From the IMG/VR virus record IMGVR_UViG_3300029079_000044: a DNA stretch of 17,538 nt; one strand, 5' to 3'. This document shows, one piece after another, positions 2,433 to 16,802 of this stretch; position 1 is the stretch's first letter, and each line of letters begins with the position of its first letter. A model generated the notes under the pieces. That model did no database searches and was not told the origin of the DNA. It worked only from the letters and a program-made list of their open reading frames with translations. The position numbers and the translations under genes are program-made. This DNA comes from a virus (lineage: Duplodnaviria; Heunggongvirae; Uroviricota; Caudoviricetes).

Positions 2433-2485
2433 GGGCGGCAGAGCAGTCACGGAGTAAAACTGATACCGCCAAACGTCACCAGAAA
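2433..2485 (-). ncRNA. dicF: DicF small RNA (ftsZ-targeting), 53 nt
   Basis: Reverse complement reads TTTCTGGTGACGTTTGGCGGTATCAGTTTTACTCCGTGACTGCTCTGCCGCCC followed by TTTTT, matching the DicF sequence as I recall it, including the GGCGG...CCGCC enclosing stem and 3' U-run. Confidence 0.8.
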
Positions 2486-3655: not shown

Positions 3656-4075
3656 TTAAGAGGCTTTTTGTTTTTTCTTTCGTGCTAACTCTTCGTAAAT
3701 TGCATTGTACTTCTGTTTTTTCTCTTCAAGAGTTTTTAAAAGTTCATCTGTCTCACTGTCAGGGAGCTCGTCCAGAAGGTCAATGATGATTTTTTGTCTT
3801 GGATTTAACTCCTGATAGAAACGTACCTGTCCACTTTCTTCTGTATCCTCTCCCAAAAGATAGGTTGGTGTTGTTCCTATTAGTGTTGCTAATTCCCTTA
3901 ATTTCTCCCGGCGAGGAATTGTTTCGCCATTAAACCATTTGCTAACCGCTTTTGGTGTTAATTTCATTCGACGGGCAATTTCTGCCTGCCTTCCATGTTG
4001 TTCATAACCAGCGTTTTCACAGGCTAGCGCAAGCCTACTGGCGAACTCTTTACGCGCTTTATCTTCATGAACCAT
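3656..4075 (-). CDS. XRE-family HTH immunity repressor (cI analogue, DicA/RacR-like), 139 aa
   Basis: Track ORF; N-terminal HTH-like segment (EIARRMKLTPKAVSKWFNGE) and acidic/helical C-terminus; divergent from the cro-like gene, with operator repeats on both sides. Confidence 0.75.
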   Translation of the reverse strand: MVHEDKARKEFASRLALACENAGYEQHGRQAEIARRMKLTPKAVSKWFNGETIPRREKLRELATLIGTTPTYLLGEDTEESGQVRFYQELNPRQKIIIDLLDELPDSETDELLKTLEEKKQKYNAIYEELARKKKQKAS

Positions 4076-4094
4076 AAGTTCAATGATATTCGCT

Positions 4095-4150
4095 CTTGAA
4101 TGTACTGTCAGTTCTGTTATAGCATGTACTCAAAGTTCACATTGTGAGGG
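4095..4150. promoter_or_regulatory. OR-like divergent operator-promoter region between the repressor and the cro-like gene
   Basis: TTGAAT -35-like hexamer, two ATGTACT motifs (4100 and 4126) matching the OL repeats, and a TCACAttgTGA palindrome. Confidence 0.4.
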
Positions 4151-4154
4151 TGAT

Positions 4155-4409
4155 ATGAACCAGAAAACACTTGAAGATGTAATCAAAACTGTTCGCGTTG
4201 CTGTTGTGGCCGACGTTTGTGGTGTCAGCCAAAGAGCAATCTATAAATGGATGGATAACGGAAAATTGCCTCGCACAGAATATACCGGCGAAACAAATTA
4301 CGCTGAAAAAATCGCTCTTGCATCAAACGGATTATTTTCTGCCGATGCAATTTTAACTATTGGCAGGAATAAAACTACTACGAAAAAGCTGATGGGAGTT
4401 GATTCATGA
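4155..4409 (+). CDS. Cro-like HTH regulator, YdaS/DicC family (84 aa)
   Basis: Internal ATG at 4155 preceded by GAGGG; HTH-like segment VCGVSQRAIYKWMDNGKLP; stop overlaps the next start (ATGA). Confidence 0.6.
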   Translation: MNQKTLEDVIKTVRVAVVADVCGVSQRAIYKWMDNGKLPRTEYTGETNYAEKIALASNGLFSADAILTIGRNKTTTKKLMGVDS

Positions 4410-4831
4410 AAATCAAGCATGAACACATCCGCATGGCGATGAATGCCTGGGCGCGTCCTGATGGCGAAAAAGTTCCAGCAGCTGGAATAACCCAGGCTTA
4501 TTTTGAGTTGGGTATGACGTTCCCAGAACTGTATGACGACAGCCATCCGGAAGCCCTGGCTCGCAATACCCAGAAAATTTTCCGCTGGGTAGAGAAAGAC
4601 ACCCCTGATGCTGTTGAAAAAATGCAGGCTCTGTTACCGGCGATCGAAAAGGCGATGCCGCCTTTGCTGGTGGCCCGTATGCGCAGCCACAGTTCTGAAT
4701 ATTATCGTGAGATCGTCGAACGGAGGGATCGGCTGGTGAAGGATGTCGATGATTTTGTTGCGTCAGCGGTTGTTTTGTATGACCAGATGAATCGCGGCGG
4801 CCCGGCAGGGAATGCTGTGGTGATGCACTAA
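4406..4831 (+). CDS. ydaT: YdaT-like protein (cII-analogue / putative toxin family), 141 aa
   Basis: Track ORF starting MKIKHEHI..., the N-terminus I associate with the YdaT family; translationally coupled to the upstream cro-like gene. Confidence 0.65.
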   Translation: MKIKHEHIRMAMNAWARPDGEKVPAAGITQAYFELGMTFPELYDDSHPEALARNTQKIFRWVEKDTPDAVEKMQALLPAIEKAMPPLLVARMRSHSSEYYREIVERRDRLVKDVDDFVASAVVLYDQMNRGGPAGNAVVMH

Positions 4832-4853: not shown

Positions 4854-5816
4854 ATGAGCAGCAAGCTTCATGGTCTTGTCTGGGAAGGGTGCGCCTTCAC
4901 CGGCATGATCTTATCCAGGGTGGCGGTTATGGCCCGTCTTGCAGACTACAGCAATGACGAGGGCGTGTCATGGCCTGCCATTGAAACTATCCGGCGTCAG
5001 ATCGGTGCAAGAAGTGAATCCACAGTGAAATCGGCTATTGCAGAACTGGCGAAAGAGGGCTGGCTGACGAAGGAAGAGCGTAAGGTCGGTGGGCGTAATG
5101 TAAGCAATATCTATCGGCTTAATGTGGAAAAACTCGAAGCAGCTGCGGCGGCGGCGCGTGAGTCATATAAACCGAAAAGAAAAATTAGCCCGGCAAAAAA
5201 TGACCCGTTAACAGTTGACCCGTCAAATATTGACCCCTCAACGGTTGACCCGTCAAATTTTGATGGATCAACTGTTGATAAAAAACTGCCGATTAGGGGG
5301 GCGATGATTGACCCCGATCCGTCAGTATTAAAACCTGATCCGTCAGATAAAAGATCTTCTTGTCCGGACGCTTCGCAACCGGACCCGCAGACGGCTGAAC
5401 AGGATTTTTTAACCCGACACCCTGACGCGGTTGTGTTCAGTGCGAAAAAACGCCAGTGGGGAAGTCAGGAAGATTTGGTGTGCGCACAGTGGATCTGGGG
5501 ACGAATCGTGAGTCTTTACGAGCAGGCGGCCAGCGATGATGGCGAGATCACTAGACCGAAAGAACCCAACTGGACAGCATGGGCCAATGACGTTCGCACA
5601 ATGCGGATGCTGGATGGCAGAACTCACAGACAAATTTGTGAAATGTTTGGGCGTCTCCAGCGGGATTCGTTCTGGGTAAAAAACATCATGAGTCCGGCAA
5701 AACTCCGGGAAAAATGGGATGAACTGGTTATCCGCCTGGGGCGTTCGCCTGCGCAGCGTTGCGTGAATCACATTTCTGAACCGGACACTGAAATTCCGCC
5801 GGGCTTCAGGGGGTAA
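4854..5816 (+). CDS. Replication initiator, lambda O-like (winged-helix N-terminus, pentapeptide-repeat linker, C-terminal domain)
   Basis: Track ORF (4839 start; the ATG at 4854 is preferred because of GGGGG upstream); N-terminal helix-turn-helix-like region; DPxxV/DPSxI repeats encoded by in-gene iterons. Confidence 0.6.
   Translation: MSSKLHGLVWEGCAFTGMILSRVAVMARLADYSNDEGVSWPAIETIRRQIGARSESTVKSAIAELAKEGWLTKEERKVGGRNVSNIYRLNVEKLEAAAAAARESYKPKRKISPAKNDPLTVDPSNIDPSTVDPSNFDGSTVDKKLPIRGAMIDPDPSVLKPDPSDKRSSCPDASQPDPQTAEQDFLTRHPDAVVFSAKKRQWGSQEDLVCAQWIWGRIVSLYEQAASDDGEITRPKEPNWTAWANDVRTMRMLDGRTHRQICEMFGRLQRDSFWVKNIMSPAKLREKWDELVIRLGRSPAQRCVNHISEPDTEIPPGFRG
5200..5274. repeat. Five tandem ~15-bp-phased iterons (core TTGACCCGTCAA, internally palindromic TTGAC/GTCAA): candidate origin of replication inside the initiator gene
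   Basis: atgacccgttaa (5200), ttgacccgtcaa (5215), ttgacccctcaa (5230), ttgacccgtcaa (5245), ttgatggatcaa (5260); a further degenerate copy near 5308. Confidence 0.55.
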
Positions 5817-5856
5817 GTGTTAATTTCTGGTCATGAGGTAATTTTCAGGAGGGCTT

Positions 5857-6282
5857 GTGGCAAAAGTTTTTACACAAGAAGAGCGGGAGAAAATTAAAGG
5901 GCAGGTTGTTGAACTCGTACGCCAGAGTGGGCGCGAGACGTTACGACAACTGGAAACTAAAACTGGGGCAACAAGATATCTGATGAGCGTTCTGGCCAGA
6001 GAACTGGTTGCCAGTGGCGATGTATACAACTCTGGTTACGGGTTATTCCCGTCTGAACAGGCGCGTAAGGACTGGCAAAATGCTCGCAAAAAACTCTCAA
6101 GGGCAAAGGTGAAGAAACCTGCAGTGGTTGATCCGGACCTTATCTGGTCGTTACCAGACGGCGAAATACGCCGCTACGACAGGCGCCTGAATATAATCTG
6201 TCGCGAGTGCCGGAAGAGCGAAGCTATGCAGCGTGTACTGGCATTTTATCAAGGAAATGTTAGGTATTTTAGACGTTACTAG
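5857..6282 (+). CDS. Hypothetical protein (141 aa), basic C-terminus; possible DNA-binding
   Basis: GTG start with AGGAGG at about 5 nt upstream; track ORF; no recognisable motif. Confidence 0.5.
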   Translation: MAKVFTQEEREKIKGQVVELVRQSGRETLRQLETKTGATRYLMSVLARELVASGDVYNSGYGLFPSEQARKDWQNARKKLSRAKVKKPAVVDPDLIWSLPDGEIRRYDRRLNIICRECRKSEAMQRVLAFYQGNVRYFRRY

Positions 6283-6435: not shown

Positions 6436-7122
6436 ATGACCCCAATAAAAATATTTATGACTATTGCTGATTTCAAACGGCCTAAATTGGAGCTCCCAAA
6501 CGGGGCAAACAAACTACTACTGCACTCTTGCTGTGCTCCATGTTCCGGTGAAGTGATGGAGGCGCTTCAGGCCTCGGGAATCGACTACACCATCTTTTTC
6601 TACAACCCGAACATTCATCCTCAGAAAGAGTATTTAATTCGTAAGGATGAAAATATTCGCTTTGCTGAACAACACGGCGTGCCGTTTATCGATGCTGATT
6701 ACGACACCGACAACTGGTTTGAACGTGCCAAAGGAATGGAATGGGAGCCTGAGAGGGGGATCCGTTGTACCATGTGTTTTGACATGCGTTTTGAGCGGAC
6801 AGCGTTGTACGCTGCTGAAAATGGTTTCAGTGTGATCAGCAGTTCACTGGGCATTTCACGCTGGAAAAATATGCAGCAGGTTAACGAGTGTGGGCGGCGA
6901 GCTGTTGCGCATTATCCGGGTATGGTGTACTGGGATTATAACTGGCGCAAGCAGGGCGGCTCGTCCCGTATGATTGAAATCAGCAAGCGCGAAAAATTCT
7001 ATCAGCAGGAATATTGTGGCTGTGTGTATTCTCTGCGCGATACCAATCTACACCGCAAATCTCAGGGACGCCCTCTTATCAAAATTGGTCAACTCCACTA
7101 CGATAAAGAAGAGAAGGAGTGA
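6436..7122 (+). CDS. queH: QueH-like protein (DUF208; putative epoxyqueuosine reductase), 228 aa
   Basis: [11 protein letters not shown] motif near the N-terminus plus downstream RCTMCF and CGC Cys motifs, as I recall for DUF208/QueH. Start is uncertain because no clear Shine-Dalgarno precedes 6436 or 6457. Confidence 0.65.
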
Positions 7123-9198: not shown

Positions 9199-9237
9199 GA
9201 ATCACGGCGGGTGCTTGAGGCTATCTGCCTCGGGCAC
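9199..9237 (+). promoter_or_regulatory. Conserved -10-like hexamer (TAGAAT) plus hairpin motif copy B
   Basis: GCGGGTGCTTGAGGCTATCTGCCTCGGGCA at 9207-9236 is 26/30 identical to copy A at 7188-7217; forms an 11-bp stem GTGCTTGAGGC/GCCTCGGGCAC with loop tatct; sits at the right boundary of the AT-rich cassette. Confidence 0.4.
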
Positions 9238-9399
9238 GAACACCAAAGGCAGATAGAGAAAAGCCCCAGTTAACATTACGCGTCCTGCAAGACGCTTAAC
9301 ATTAATCTGAGGCCAATTTCATGCTAGACACATGTAGGTTAGCCTCTTACGTGCCGAAAGGCACGGAGAAGCAGGCTATTGTTAACACCAAGCTGTAAT

Positions 9400-10900
9400 G
9401 TCCCCTTTGAACCATTCTAAAATGTCCCCAGACAATTCTCTGGGGGATTTTTCATGATCAAAGAGACTGTTACGATGAGTCATAAGGAACTCCACCGACT
9501 TCAGATTATTCAGGAACAAGCTGCGGCACGCATTGGCATTTCTATTCGGCAGGTTAAACGTCTGGTGCAACGGTATAGAAATGAAGGGCCTTCTGGTCTG
9601 GTTTCCCACCGACGTGGAAAGCGTCCTAATAATTCCTTTTCTACTGAATTCAGAGCAACAGTAATTTCACTCCTCAAAGGCCGTTACGCTGATTTTGGAC
9701 CTACGTTTGCGTGCGAAAAATTGCGCGAGATACACGGTTTATCTTTATCCGTTGAAACTCTCAGAAAGTGGATGATAGAAGAGGGGTTATGGCGTGAACG
9801 CCGTCGTAAAATTGCCCGTATATATCAACGCCGCATGCGACGACCATCTTACGGTGAACTGATCCAGATTGATGGCTCACCTCATGACTGGTTTGAAAAT
9901 CGAGGCCCCAGATGTACACTGATCGTTTTCATTGATGATGCCACCAGTGCGTTGATGGCGTTGCGTTTTGTGCCTGCTGAAACAACCCGGGCTTACATGG
10001 AAACCCTCCGGGGTTACCTTAATGATCATGGCGTACCGCTCGCTCTCTACTCTGATAGACACAGTATATTCAGGGTAAATAACCCAGAGCGGGAAGGTGA
10101 GCTGACCCAGTTCACTCGTGCGATAAAGACACTGGGCATCGAGCCAATCCATGCCAACAGCCCGCAGGCAAAAGGGCGGGTAGAGCGCGCCAATCAGACA
10201 CTACAGGACAGGCTGGTCAAAGAAATGCGGCTTCAGAATATCAGTGATATTGAAACAGCAAATGCATGGTTGCCGACCTTTATTGAAGCCTATAACAACC
10301 GGTTCGCTACGTCGCCTCGTACTACTGATAATGCTCATCTTGATGTGCACCATTCTGAAGAGGAACTGGGTTATATCTTCAGCCTACAGGCGAAGCGCGT
10401 TCTGTCTAAAAATCTCACTTTCCAGTACAAAAGCAGTGCGTTTCAGGTACGCAGTGAGGGCCGGGGATATCGACTTAGGCATTCGGTTGTTACTGTATGC
10501 GAGAACTTTGACGGTGAAATTAACGTTCTGTATGACGGGAAAGCGCTGGGCTGGGAAAAGTATGTTGATGGCCCGGAGCCTATACCACTGGATGATGAAA
10601 AGAGTGTCCATGAACGAGTGGATAATGCCCGTATTGATTTACGCTCAAAATACTATGTTAAACCTAAAGCTGACCATCCCTGGCTTACGCGCCGAACGCA
10701 AAGTCATCAGCAAGTTAAGCCCCCGAAGTTACCTAAAAAGAAGCCTGATCCCGATAAAAAAGATTGAAACCAAGATCGATTCGGTTGAGTGCATATCCAT
10801 TCATAGGGTAGATTCTTAAGTCGCGTTTCTGGTGTTCATTTTCGGGTGGTTTGTTACTTGTTTTACCGGGGATATGCCAGAAACGCGCTGAGTCAGTCTG
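9400..10900 (+). mobile_element. Insertion sequence carrying one DDE transposase gene (IS481/ISNCY-like); ends approximate
   Basis: Single 437-aa transposase ORF; terminal inverted repeats could not be resolved by eye, so these bounds are a guess of ORF plus about 50-130 bp each side. Confidence 0.35.
9454..10767 (+). CDS. DDE transposase with N-terminal HTH and rve integrase core (IS481/ISNCY-family-like), 437 aa
   Basis: Track ORF; N-terminal HTH (ARIGISIRQVKRLVQRYRNEG); catalytic-triad candidates in IQIDGS, YSDRHS and KGRVERANQTLQ; lysine/proline-rich basic C-terminus. Confidence 0.8.
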   Translation: MIKETVTMSHKELHRLQIIQEQAAARIGISIRQVKRLVQRYRNEGPSGLVSHRRGKRPNNSFSTEFRATVISLLKGRYADFGPTFACEKLREIHGLSLSVETLRKWMIEEGLWRERRRKIARIYQRRMRRPSYGELIQIDGSPHDWFENRGPRCTLIVFIDDATSALMALRFVPAETTRAYMETLRGYLNDHGVPLALYSDRHSIFRVNNPEREGELTQFTRAIKTLGIEPIHANSPQAKGRVERANQTLQDRLVKEMRLQNISDIETANAWLPTFIEAYNNRFATSPRTTDNAHLDVHHSEEELGYIFSLQAKRVLSKNLTFQYKSSAFQVRSEGRGYRLRHSVVTVCENFDGEINVLYDGKALGWEKYVDGPEPIPLDDEKSVHERVDNARIDLRSKYYVKPKADHPWLTRRTQSHQQVKPPKLPKKKPDPDKKD

Positions 10901-15873: not shown

Positions 15874-16086
15874 TCATGAAAGGTAAACATTGGCAGCTGA
15901 AGGGCCACGCAGACCATTTATCCGGCAAAATTCCACGCGTAATCCGGTGGTAATTTCTTCTGCATCGCGGAGATTGAGCGCTGAAACATGAAGCTGGACA
16001 TCGATACGACCATCGGATGGGGTGATAAGACCCTTGCCGCTTTTGCCGTCAAAGGTTTTGACAATTCCTGTCATTTTACGGGACAA
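15874..16086 (-). CDS. cspF: Cold-shock-like protein CspF/CspH type (70 aa); apparent TTG start
   Basis: [26 protein letters not shown]... cold-shock domain; start codon reads TTG with AAGGAA 5 nt upstream. Confidence 0.7.
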
Positions 16087-16386
16087 AAAAATTCCTTAAT
16101 ACTGATAACTTGGCGCACTATACACACGTTCCTGAAGAAAGCTATAGTTTTTTGATGGGGTTGAAGATGGCTGGATGTCTAAAATAAACATTGCTTCATA
16201 TGTTCAACTATGCGTTAATGATTGCGTCGGTTTGAAGAACAGACGATATACGAAGTAGTTTACTAAAGCAGTTCTCATTTCAGGTGTTATTCACTTATTC
16301 CTTCTTTGAGTCTCTCCAATTAAGTACGAAGTCGTTTCTGTTATGCAAACCATTTATGCCGAAAGGCTCAAGTTAAGGAATGTAGA

Positions 16387-16602
16387 ATGTCAAATAAAAT
16401 GACTGGTTTAGTAAAATGGTTTAACGCTGATAAAGGTTTCGGCTTTATTTCTCCTGTTGATGGTAGTAAAGATGTGTTTGTGCATTTTTCTGCGATTCAG
16501 AATGATAATTATCGAACCTTATTTGAAGGTCAAAAGGTTACCTTCTCTGTAGAGAGTGGTGCTAAAGGTCCTGCGGCAGCAAATGTTATAATTACCGATT
16601 AA
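16387..16602 (+). CDS. cspB: Cold-shock protein CspB-like (71 aa)
   Basis: [51 protein letters not shown]...; AAGGA Shine-Dalgarno. Confidence 0.8.
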
Positions 16603-16802
16603 AATCCAGGACTCGACTGTATACGATAACGAAGATGGCTGATGCCTGAGTAGAGATGCAGATAGAGTAATGGATATAGAATCCCATTTTGTGGTGAAGT
16701 ACAGGTTTGCTGTATGAATAGTTTAATAGCAGAAGCTAACTGCTGGCATAGTAAAACAAAGTGCGTAAGTGGGTGACTCCCACAAAAAGCACCACAATCT
16801 CA

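What the first reader, a model, noticed from the sequence alone, without database searches (positions are those of the whole stretch)
5200..5320. Five 15-bp-phased palindromic iterons inside the replication initiator gene (candidate ori)
TTGACCCGTCAA-type units recur at 5200, 5215, 5230, 5245 and 5260 with strict 15-bp phasing, encoding a DPxxV pentapeptide repeat in the initiator linker, and are followed by an A-rich stretch (gataaaaaactgcc). This parallels the lambda ori-within-O arrangement but with shorter, internally palindromic iterons (TTGAC/GTCAA).
Basis: partly seen in the sequence, partly recalled or inferred. Interest (0 to 1): 0.4.

Follow-up and report, generated by a model that had tools for sequence, protein, structure and literature searches.

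The report
Replication origin inside prophage initiator gene
A run of five 15-bp palindromic repeats in the middle of an E. coli prophage's lambda-O-like replication gene is conserved as DNA rather than as protein, so it is very probably that prophage's replication origin: a new sequence family built on the familiar lambda plan.

Summary
Five 15-bp-phased units (5200-5271, core TTGACCCGTCAA) lie in frame in gene 4854-5816, and the motif occurs nowhere else in the window. The gene encodes a winged-helix N-domain, a disordered linker and a C-domain homologous to lambda O. The array starts at codon 116; lambda's own iterons occupy codons 117-145.

Comparison of 86 non-identical homologs from many Enterobacterales genera shows selection on the DNA, not the peptide. 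Ser codons in the repeats are about 91% TCA or TCT, against 9-16% elsewhere in the same genes. Same-codon identity is 0.82 in the linker and 0.37 in the N-domain, and the linker is higher in all 1,483 pairs. In the window's clade the motif appears in both orientations, encoding DPS or EGS.

The repeats travel with the N-domain type whatever the C-domain. mEp460 has the same C-domain, another N-domain and different repeats. The conserved block runs from about 5189 to 5386 and includes a conserved GATC cluster.

There is no convincing AT-rich unwinding region and no P-like gene. Binding and origin function are inferred, not shown.

Verdict: candidate ori supported; new member of the ori-within-initiator kind; moderate interest.

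The parts
4854..5816 (+). Replication initiator gene (320 aa): winged-helix N-domain, repeat-encoding linker, lambda-O-like C-domain, DnaT-like C-terminal tail
   Evidence: ORF and translation. Pfam HTH_36 over aa 25-71. phrog_391 'replication initiation O-like' at E 2e-115. BLASTP against lambda O: aa 182-300 versus 171-277, 39% identity, E 5e-26.
4854..5170 (+). Coding region of the N-terminal winged-helix DNA-binding domain, the presumed iteron reader
   Evidence: AlphaFold2 model with mean pLDDT 82, topology H-H-H-H plus a beta-hairpin wing plus a helix at 91-105, and confidence falling after about residue 106. Foldseek returns MarR/ArsR/PadR-type dimeric wHTH regulators with TM 0.5-0.6.
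5162..5199 (.). Moderately A-rich leader 5' of the array (60-65% A+T); one possible melting region
   Evidence: Composition scan. Present only in the window's clade.
5200..5211 (+). Iteron 1 (ATGACCCGTTAA, degenerate)
5215..5226 (+). Iteron 2 (TTGACCCGTCAA)
5230..5241 (+). Iteron 3 (TTGACCCCTCAA)
5245..5256 (+). Iteron 4 (TTGACCCGTCAA)
5260..5271 (-). Iteron 5 in inverted orientation (top strand TTGATGGATCAA, bottom strand TTGATCCATCAA); contains GATC at 5266
   Evidence: The G-rich centre encodes DGS instead of DPS.
5275..5286 (+). Degenerate sixth unit (TTGATAAAAAAC) with an A6 tract at 5280-5285
   Evidence: Sequence. The period-30 TRF row extends to 5278.
5308..5360 (.). Most conserved DNA block: TTGACCCC, GATCCGTCAG twice (5316-5325 and 5337-5346, 21 bp apart) and AGATCT; GATC at 5316, 5337 and 5353
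   Evidence: Nearly invariant at third codon positions across genera. The Asp codon at the 'GGDPSV' anchor is GAT in 84 of 84 genes.
5362..5384 (.). Imperfect inverted repeat GTCCGG-N11-CCGGAC at the 3' edge of the conserved block
   Evidence: Sequence and family comparison. The repeat is conserved, but arm complementarity is inconsistent across homologs, so its significance is open.

Best explanation
The repeats are the initiator-binding sites (iterons) of this lambdoid prophage's replication origin, embedded in the linker-coding part of the initiator's own gene as in lambda ori/O.

Proposed mechanism:
1. Dimers of the initiator's N-terminal winged-helix domain recognise each TTGA-N4-TCAA dyad. 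There are five units at 15-bp phasing, in either orientation, plus two related GATCCGTCAG sites 21 bp apart.
2. Cooperative occupancy builds an O-some-like nucleoprotein complex. This complex distorts and opens neighbouring DNA, either the A-rich leader at 5162-5199 or the moderately A+T-rich GATC block at about 5320-5360.
3. The lambda-O-like C-domain then brings in the host DnaB helicase. It would do so through a DnaC-like loader where one is encoded (some relatives), or through host factors where none is (this window).
4. The conserved GATC cluster suggests Dam/SeqA control.

What is shown: the repeat anatomy, the homology and domain architecture, the nucleotide-level constraint, the linkage between N-domain type and repeat type, and the positional equivalence with lambda.

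What is inferred: binding, dimer stoichiometry, the site of melting, the route of helicase recruitment and the role of methylation.
For: 1. The gene is a lambda-O-type initiator. Its N-domain is modelled as a winged helix followed by a disordered linker.

2. The array occupies codons 116-141. Lambda's four iterons, found here with the same tool, occupy codons 117-145 of O.

3. The constraint is on nucleotides. In 86 non-identical homologs (458 units), the second Ser is TCA in 419 of 458 and the first Ser is TCT in 201 of 222. The same codons make up 15.5% and 8.9% of Ser codons elsewhere in the same genes. Lys is AAA in 220 of 220 and Glu is GAA in 43 of 43. Invariant residues of the adjacent N-domain have scrambled codons, with a mean top-codon fraction of 0.52. 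The pairwise same-codon fraction is 0.82 in the linker against 0.37 in the N-domain, and the linker is higher in 1,483 of 1,483 pairs. Third positions are 0.8-1.0 conserved even where the amino acid varies.

4. In the window's clade (Escherichia, Erwinia, Mixta, Morganella, Edwardsiella), TTGA-N4-TYAA occurs 29 times, all within nt 270-560 of the gene. Centres are C-rich (encoding DPS) or the complementary G-rich (encoding EGS or DGS). This is the same DNA site in both orientations with different peptides.

5. The repeats travel with the N-domain. Fifteen-bp arrays are present with three different C-domain types. mEp460 has the same C-domain but another N-domain, and has five different repeats spaced 23-24 bp at the same place. 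Iteron arms differ between N-domain clades.

6. Copy number varies by whole units among E. coli strains, +30 bp and -15 bp.

7. The motif is confined to 5200-5346 within the 17.5-kb window.

8. A 15,977-bp circular E. coli record consists only of this prophage early region, including the initiator and the array. This is weak evidence because the assembly is probably error-prone.
Against: - No experiment is available here: no binding, footprint or replication assay.
- There is no lambda-like 40-bp A+T-rich unwinding element. The maximum is 65% A+T in 40 bp.
- DnaA boxes appear only as 1-mismatch matches at about chance frequency.
- A 15-bp centre-to-centre spacing (about 1.4 helical turns) is unusual for iterons, which usually sit about two turns apart. 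The binding geometry is therefore unclear.
- Complementarity of the inner base pair (unit positions 6 and 9) is barely above expectation, 201 observed against 183 expected. Only TGA...TCA is a firmly conserved dyad.
- No P-like or DnaC-like gene follows the initiator in this window.
- Units and genes are not phylogenetically independent. This is mitigated by the within-pair comparison.
Confidence: 0.75

Rival explanations
1. The repeats are initiator-binding sites, but they serve mainly for autoregulation or copy control (a transcriptional roadblock in the initiator's own gene, or handcuffing). Initiation would take place elsewhere in the prophage.
For: The same nucleotide-level constraint and N-domain linkage would be expected for any cognate binding site. 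No strong A+T-rich region or DnaA boxes lie next to the array.
Against: No other copy or cluster of the motif exists in the 17.5-kb window. The position equals that of the proven lambda ori. The conserved block extends about 110 bp beyond the array and carries a GATC cluster, a feature known from origins such as oriC and P1 oriR (established knowledge).
Confidence: 0.1
2. The conserved DNA is a cis-element for something other than the initiator. Candidates are a site for a host or other phage protein (SeqA/Dam, IHF-like factors, the DUF977 HTH protein), or a conserved junction that promotes recombinational shuffling of N- and C-domain modules.
For: Mosaic joints do fall here. Window and mEp460 homology begins at about 5349, and three C-domain types are joined after the same block. 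The GATC cluster is conserved.
Against: The repeat type follows the N-domain clade, not the downstream gene or the C-domain. A recombination junction does not explain dyad-symmetric 15-bp units kept in either orientation, nor third-position conservation across genera beside a saturated N-domain.
Confidence: 0.08
3. It is simply a repetitive, disordered pentapeptide linker (DPSxx) with no DNA-level role. The DNA repeat would be a by-product of recent tandem duplication.
For: The repeats are in frame and copy number changes by whole units. The region is predicted to be disordered.
Against: Synonymous sites are far more conserved than in the flanking domain. The peptide itself is not conserved (DPS versus EGS or DGS; SD[PATGVR]SK) while the DNA dyad is. 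Asp-codon choice splits sharply, GAC 146:1 in the array against GAT 84 of 84 at the anchor.
Confidence: 0.04

Closest known systems
Bacteriophage lambda ori-lambda within gene O (and its Stx-phage versions with six iterons)
   Same: The origin lies inside the initiator gene, in the segment between the DNA-binding N-domain and the C-domain (codons 116-141 here, 117-145 in lambda). There are four to six dyad-symmetric iterons. The C-domain is homologous (39% identity, E 5e-26). Gene order is repressor, cro-like, cII/YdaT-like, initiator. Background on lambda and Stx ori comes from PMC6022878 and PMC7466680.
   Different: The N-domain is not the Phage_rep_O/TIGR01610 family: lambda O hits that model at 5e-39 and this protein does not hit it. 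The iterons are 12-bp dyads at 15-bp phasing and occur in both orientations; lambda has 19-20-bp units at 20-24 bp. There is no 39-40-bp high-A+T region. A conserved GATC cluster is present. No P gene follows.
Phage mEp460 initiator (same C-domain, different N-domain)
   Same: The C-terminal half is 86.6% identical in DNA. Repeats sit at the same position in the gene (codons about 111-153). There is no P-like gene, and a DUF977/LygF-type gene follows.
   Different: The N-domain is different and the repeats are different: five copies with core GGTCAAAATGA spaced 23-24 bp. This shows that repeat type follows N-domain type.
Replisome organisers of Gram-positive phages with ori inside their own gene (for example SPP1 G38P/oriL and lactococcal TP901-1 rep); this rests on my own knowledge
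   Same: The C-region matches DnaD-like or replisome-organizer PHROGs (phrog_2514, phrog_4880), and the initiator-binding repeats lie within the initiator gene.
   Different: The hosts, repeat sequences and partner proteins differ. No direct comparison was made here.
Iteron origins with GATC clusters (P1 oriR, E. coli oriC 13-mers, Vibrio cholerae chromosome II/RctB); this rests on my own knowledge plus the abstract of PMC3401445
   Same: An iteron array sits next to a cluster of conserved GATC sites. The GATC pairs are 21 and 16 bp apart, which is compatible with SeqA binding.
   Different: There are no convincing DnaA boxes. The initiator is not a RepA/RctB-type protein. Dependence on methylation is untested.

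Membership tests
Lambda-type ori embedded in an O-type initiator gene | The cis-element lies inside the initiator ORF, between the DNA-binding domain and the C-terminal domain | tested here: met
   The array occupies codons 116-141 of a 320-codon gene. The N-domain model ends at about residue 106. Lambda iterons occupy codons 117-145.
Lambda-type ori embedded in an O-type initiator gene | Four or more repeated sites with internal dyad symmetry | tested here: met
   Five units TTGA-N4-TCAA plus a degenerate sixth. Among 86 homologs, 0 to 7 copies per gene, most often 3-5.
Lambda-type ori embedded in an O-type initiator gene | C-terminal domain homologous to lambda O (the P-interaction domain) | tested here: met
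   BLASTP 39% identity over 119 aa, E 5e-26; tblastn E 1e-18.
Lambda-type ori embedded in an O-type initiator gene | N-terminal domain of the Phage_rep_O family (TIGR01610) | tested here: not met
   Lambda O scores 5.4e-39 against TIGR01610 and the window protein gives no hit. Pfam assigns HTH_36 instead.
Lambda-type ori embedded in an O-type initiator gene | An adjacent A+T-rich unwinding region of about 40 bp | tested here: not met
   The maximum is 65% A+T in any 40-bp window between 5150 and 5400.
Lambda-type ori embedded in an O-type initiator gene | A P-type helicase-loader gene immediately downstream | tested here: not met
   A DUF977 gene follows at 5857. Relatives L002 and L004 carry a 248-aa DnaC-like ATPase instead of P.
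Lambda-type ori embedded in an O-type initiator gene | The initiator binds the repeats, and the fragment supports initiator-dependent replication | not testable with these tools
   Needs EMSA or footprinting and a plasmid replication assay.
Cis-acting DNA element as opposed to a coding repeat | Synonymous sites are more conserved than in flanking coding sequence, and the motif is kept when the peptide changes | tested here: met
   (0.82 against 0.37, 1,483 of 1,483 pairs). One search shows the two orientations encoding DPS and EGS.
Cognate initiator-iteron pair | Repeat sequence covaries with the DNA-binding domain, independently of the rest of the protein | tested here: met
   Three C-domain types occur with the same repeat type. 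The same C-domain with another N-domain has other repeats. Iteron arms are clade-specific. Only three clades were available, so the statistical power is modest.
Plasmid-type iteron origin (RepA/pi/TrfA class) | A Rep protein with tandem winged-helix domains, 17-22-bp direct iterons about two turns apart, and DnaA boxes | tested here: not met
   There is a single wHTH domain, the phasing is 15 bp, and DnaA boxes occur only at chance level.
Dam/SeqA-controlled origin | A cluster of conserved GATC sites in the origin | tested here: met
   Four GATC in 5266-5356. In the family, density is about 17 per kb at nt 390-570 against about 1.8 per kb upstream. The anchor Asp codon is GAT in 84 of 84 genes. 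The functional consequence is untested.

The most novel reading that the evidence does not exclude
This is a P-less version of lambda-type initiation. A winged-helix initiator would polymerise on contiguous 15-bp dyads, which may point either way, so that no AT-rich element is needed. Firing would be gated by a conserved Dam/SeqA GATC block. The host helicase would be recruited through a C-terminal tail copied from the host primosomal protein DnaT (AQRCVNHISEPDTEIPPGFRG against the DnaT C-terminus) rather than through a phage loader.
Probability: 0.2. Interest if true: 0.6.

Novelty: new member of a known kind. Interest (0 to 1): 0.4.

Why it matters
This initiator N-half with its repeats matches in 1,885 of 5,426 complete E. 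coli genomes; 1,517 cover at least 80% of the query. These include O104:H4 and O157:H7 strains. Relatives occur in SfII, SfIV, phiP27, phiNP and many Klebsiella and Yersinia phages. RefSeq nevertheless annotates the gene only as 'helix-turn-helix domain-containing protein'.

Defining the origin would:
- give a handle for detecting and blocking prophage replication, which is relevant to Stx and serotype-converting phages;
- supply a compact replicon for vectors with a new specificity;
- provide a clean natural example of a DNA site dictating the sequence of the protein linker that overlaps it.

The principle, an origin inside the O gene, has been known since lambda. The conceptual gain is therefore modest.

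Tried and rejected
- Complementarity of the inner palindrome pair (third base of the Asp/Glu codon against third base of the next codon) was only 201 observed against 183 expected. The TTGAC/GTCAA five-bp arms are therefore not supported family-wide; only TGA-N4-TCA is.
- No AT-rich unwinding element was found.
- DnaA boxes appeared only as three 1-mismatch matches (about one expected by my arithmetic), and there was no IHF consensus.
- No Rfam family lies in the region. No promoter-like or terminator-like site lies in the array. I saw no long overlapping ORF in other frames across 5200-5390.
- The inverted repeat GTCCGG-N11-CCGGAC is conserved, but its arm complementarity is inconsistent across homologs, so I do not claim a structure.
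- The IMG/VR scan returned almost only identical copies and was of no use for divergence analysis. The GTDB genome scan supplied the diversity.
- The protein database search returned only short or partial N-domain entries. These were used only to build the alignment for structure prediction.
- Four literature searches found no description of this iteron family. The library lacks most older subscription-journal papers, for example the Weigel & Seitz 2006 review, so a prior in-silico mention cannot be excluded.
- The function of the DnaT tail could not be established from PMC13377028.

Full report
**1. What is there**

The window is a lambdoid prophage early region. Genes were identified with Pfam and PHROGs. 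Gene order around the finding is:
- repressor, 3656-4075, minus strand
- Cro/YdaS-like, 4083-4409
- YdaT/CII-like, 4406-4831
- a 320-codon ORF, 4854-5816
- DUF977/Ren-like, 5857-6282
- QueH-like, 6436-7122

The 963-bp ORF is 100% identical to genes in many complete E. coli genomes, including O104:H4 outbreak strains. RefSeq calls it only 'helix-turn-helix domain-containing protein'.

**2.

Tandem Repeats Finder reports a period-15 array of about 5 copies at 5180/5189-5263. It also reports a period-30 reading that reaches 5278. TTGACCCGTCAA-type units sit at 5200, 5215, 5230, 5245 and 5260. That search gave 8 matches against 1.45 expected, and none of 200 shuffles reached 8. The only match outside the array is a chance-level 2-mismatch hit at 16075.

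The units are in frame from codon 116 and read NDPLT-VDPSN-IDPST-VDPSN-FDGST. Each core is an inverted repeat, TTGA-N4-TCAA. The fifth unit matches better on the bottom strand.

**3. The host gene is a modular lambda-O-type initiator**

- The whole protein matches phrog_391 'replication initiation O-like' at E 2e-115.
- Residues 25-71 match Pfam HTH_36.
- Residues 182-300 align with lambda O residues 171-277 at 39% identity, E 5e-26.
- An AlphaFold2 model of residues 1-115 (pLDDT 82) is a winged helix followed by one helix. Confidence collapses after about residue 106.
- Foldseek returns dimeric MarR/ArsR/PadR-type winged-helix DNA binders.
- The N-domain is not lambda's. TIGR01610 hits lambda O at 5e-39 but does not hit this protein.

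With the same repeat finder, lambda's four iterons fall at codons 117-145 of O. That is essentially the same place in the gene as this array.

**4. Is the repeat a DNA element or only a repetitive peptide?**

I collected homologs of the N-domain from phages, E. coli genomes and one genome per species. This gave 86 non-identical genes spanning Escherichia, Klebsiella-group genera, Erwinia, Edwardsiella, Morganella, Providencia, Proteus, Yersinia, Rahnella and others. N-domain identity to the window ranges from 54 to 100%.

85 of 86 carry at least one motif copy, and 82 carry at least two. The modal spacing is 15 bp, in 144 of 232 intervals.

*Codon usage.* Counts are over 458 units.

| Codon in repeat units | Count | Share of that residue's codons elsewhere in the same genes |
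|---|---|---|
| second Ser = TCA | 419/458 | 15.5% |
| first Ser = TCT | 201/222 | 8.9% |
| Lys = AAA | 220/220 | not measured |
| Glu = GAA | 43/43 | not measured |

Invariant residues in the adjoining N-domain have scrambled codons, with a mean top-codon fraction of 0.52.

*Control for shared ancestry.* For every pair of genes with N-domain identity of 80% or less, I compared the fraction of identical residues that use the same codon. It is 0.37 in the N-domain and 0.82 in the linker block. The linker is higher in all 1,483 pairs.

*Per-column view.* Third positions are 0.8-1.0 conserved from the start of the array to '...CAACCGGAC', even where the amino acid is only about 50% conserved.

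*Both orientations.* In the window's own clade (11 genes from five genera), TTGA-N4-TYAA occurs 29 times. All 29 lie within nt 270-560 of the gene. The centres are either C-rich (CCCG, CCCC or CCCA, peptide DPS) or the complementary G-rich (GGGG, GGGA or TGGA, peptide EGS, EGL or DGS). This is the same DNA site in either orientation, encoding different peptides.

A purely protein-level repeat is therefore effectively excluded.

**5. The repeats belong to the N-domain**

Fifteen-bp arrays of about 4 copies occur at the same position in PhiR49_1, Eeyore, YeP3 and Stx2_KH16-043, although these carry three unrelated C-domain types.

mEp460 shows the converse. Its C-terminal half is 86.6% identical to the window in DNA, but it has a different N-domain. 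It carries five different repeats (core GGTCAAAATGA, spacing 23-24 bp) at codons about 111-153.

Iteron arms also differ between N-domain clades:
- window clade: TTGA..TCAA
- main clade: TCTGAC..TCAAAA
- KH16-043 clade: TCTGAACCTTCAGAA

Among E. coli strains the array varies by whole units, +30 bp and -15 bp.

**6. The element is larger than reported**

The conserved DNA block runs from about 5189 to 5386. After the five units come, in order:
- a degenerate sixth unit with an A6 tract (5275-5286)
- a G6 run
- a nearly invariant segment (5308-5360) containing TTGACCCC, two GATCCGTCAG sites 21 bp apart, and AGATCT
- an imperfect inverted repeat GTCCGG-N11-CCGGAC (5362-5384)

GATC sites lie at 5266, 5316, 5337 and 5353. 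Across the family, GATC density is about 17 per kb at nt 390-570 of the gene, against about 1.8 per kb upstream.

Asp-codon choice splits sharply. Before a C-starting codon it is GAC 146:1 inside the array. At the 'GGDPSV' anchor it is GAT in 84 of 84 genes, which creates GATC. The GATC sites are therefore themselves selected, which points to Dam/SeqA involvement. That last step is an inference from what is known of oriC and P1 oriR.

**7. What does not fit lambda**

- There is no high-A+T unwinding region. The maximum is 65% A+T per 40 bp. The 'A-rich stretch' is only an A6 tract.
- DnaA boxes occur only as 1-mismatch matches at about chance frequency.
- The 15-bp phasing is about 1.4 helical turns, not about 2.
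- No P-like gene follows. Relatives L002 and L004, with the same initiator, have a 248-aa DnaC-like ATPase next. The window, L003, PhiR49_1 and mEp460 do not. PhiR49_1 and mEp460 are deposited as complete phage genomes, which suggests a phage-encoded loader is dispensable.
- The initiator's last 21 residues match the extreme C-terminus of host DnaT. This explains the 'primosomal protein I' annotations and suggests a host-recruitment handle. Its role is unknown.

**8. Mechanism proposed**

Winged-helix dimers bind the TTGA-N4-TCAA dyads and the related GATCCGTCAG sites. They assemble an O-some-like complex that opens flanking DNA. The lambda-O-like C-domain then recruits DnaB, through a DnaC-like loader or through host factors. 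GATC methylation state modulates firing.

Shown: the anatomy, the homology, the DNA-level selection and the linkage between domain and repeat.

Inferred: binding, stoichiometry, the melting site, the recruitment route and the role of methylation.

Confidence that these repeats are the origin's iterons is 0.75.

**9. Supporting curiosity**

PLSDB holds a 15,977-bp circular E. coli 'plasmid' (NZ_CP148542.1). It consists only of this prophage's early-to-lysis region, with the initiator, the same array and a DnaC-like gene. No replicon type is listed for it. It resembles a natural lambda-dv. However, frameshifts in ydaT and in the initiator suggest an error-prone assembly, so I give it little weight.

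**10. Novelty**

The principle, an origin embedded in the linker-coding part of an O-type initiator gene, is textbook for lambda and Stx phages (PMC6022878, PMC7466680). I found no description of this iteron family or its GATC block in the searchable literature, but that library is incomplete. I rate it a new member of a known kind. Interest is moderate because of its prevalence and the unusually clean evidence for DNA-over-protein selection.

Noticed in passing
window 5751-5813 (last 21 codons of the initiator): The C-terminal tail AQRCVNHISEPDTEIPPGFRG matches the extreme C-terminus of E. coli DnaT, primosomal protein I (PDB 2ru8, 6aep, 9zbt; NCBIfam DnaT positions 159-179). An IPxGFRG tail is also present in homologs with a different C-domain (L007). 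It may be a host-primosome or helicase recruitment handle, and it explains the 'primosomal protein I' annotations.
   Followed up: partly
window 5817-5857, compared with L002 2500-3246 and L004 2455-3201: No helicase-loader gene follows the initiator in the window; DUF977 comes next. E. coli relatives with the same initiator carry a 248-aa DnaC-like ATPase there. PhiR49_1 and mEp460, deposited as complete phage genomes, also lack one.
   Followed up: partly
L171 (NZ_CP148542.1, 15,977 bp circular): An E. coli 'plasmid' record consists solely of this prophage's region from repressor to lysis genes, including the initiator, the identical 15-bp array and a DnaC-like gene. No replicon type is listed for it. 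It resembles lambda-dv, but ydaT and the initiator are frameshifted, probably through sequencing errors.
   Followed up: partly
L006 2699-2828 (phage mEp460): An initiator with the same C-domain but a different N-domain carries five repeats (core GGTCAAAATGA) spaced 23-24 bp at the equivalent gene position, plus two TACAGAGAATA(C/A)AA copies 24 bp apart. This is probably that phage's ori.
   Followed up: partly
window 5362-5384: An imperfect inverted repeat GTCCGG-N11-CCGGAC lies at the 3' edge of the conserved block. It is also shared with mEp460. Variants in homologs sometimes keep complementarity (GTCAGGC/GCCTGAC) and sometimes do not.
   Followed up: partly
window 2433-2484 (-), 9209-9380 (+), 16226-16644 (+): Rfam hits above gathering score: DicF antisense RNA, sok antitoxin RNA (a hok/sok-type module), and a full-length cspA thermoregulator 5' UTR.
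   Followed up: no
window 6436-7122 (+): A prophage-borne QueH-like epoxyqueuosine reductase gene (Pfam PF02677, E 1e-65) lies just downstream of the replication module.
   Followed up: no
phage phiP27 (AJ298298.1 / NC_003356.1) 10334-10675: phiP27 encodes a type-A N-domain of the KH16-043 clade, 49% identical to the window. PMC7466680 describes the O protein and ori of 'P27' as lambda-like with six iterons. The two may be different phages, or the plasmid used there may derive from another replicon.
   Followed up: no
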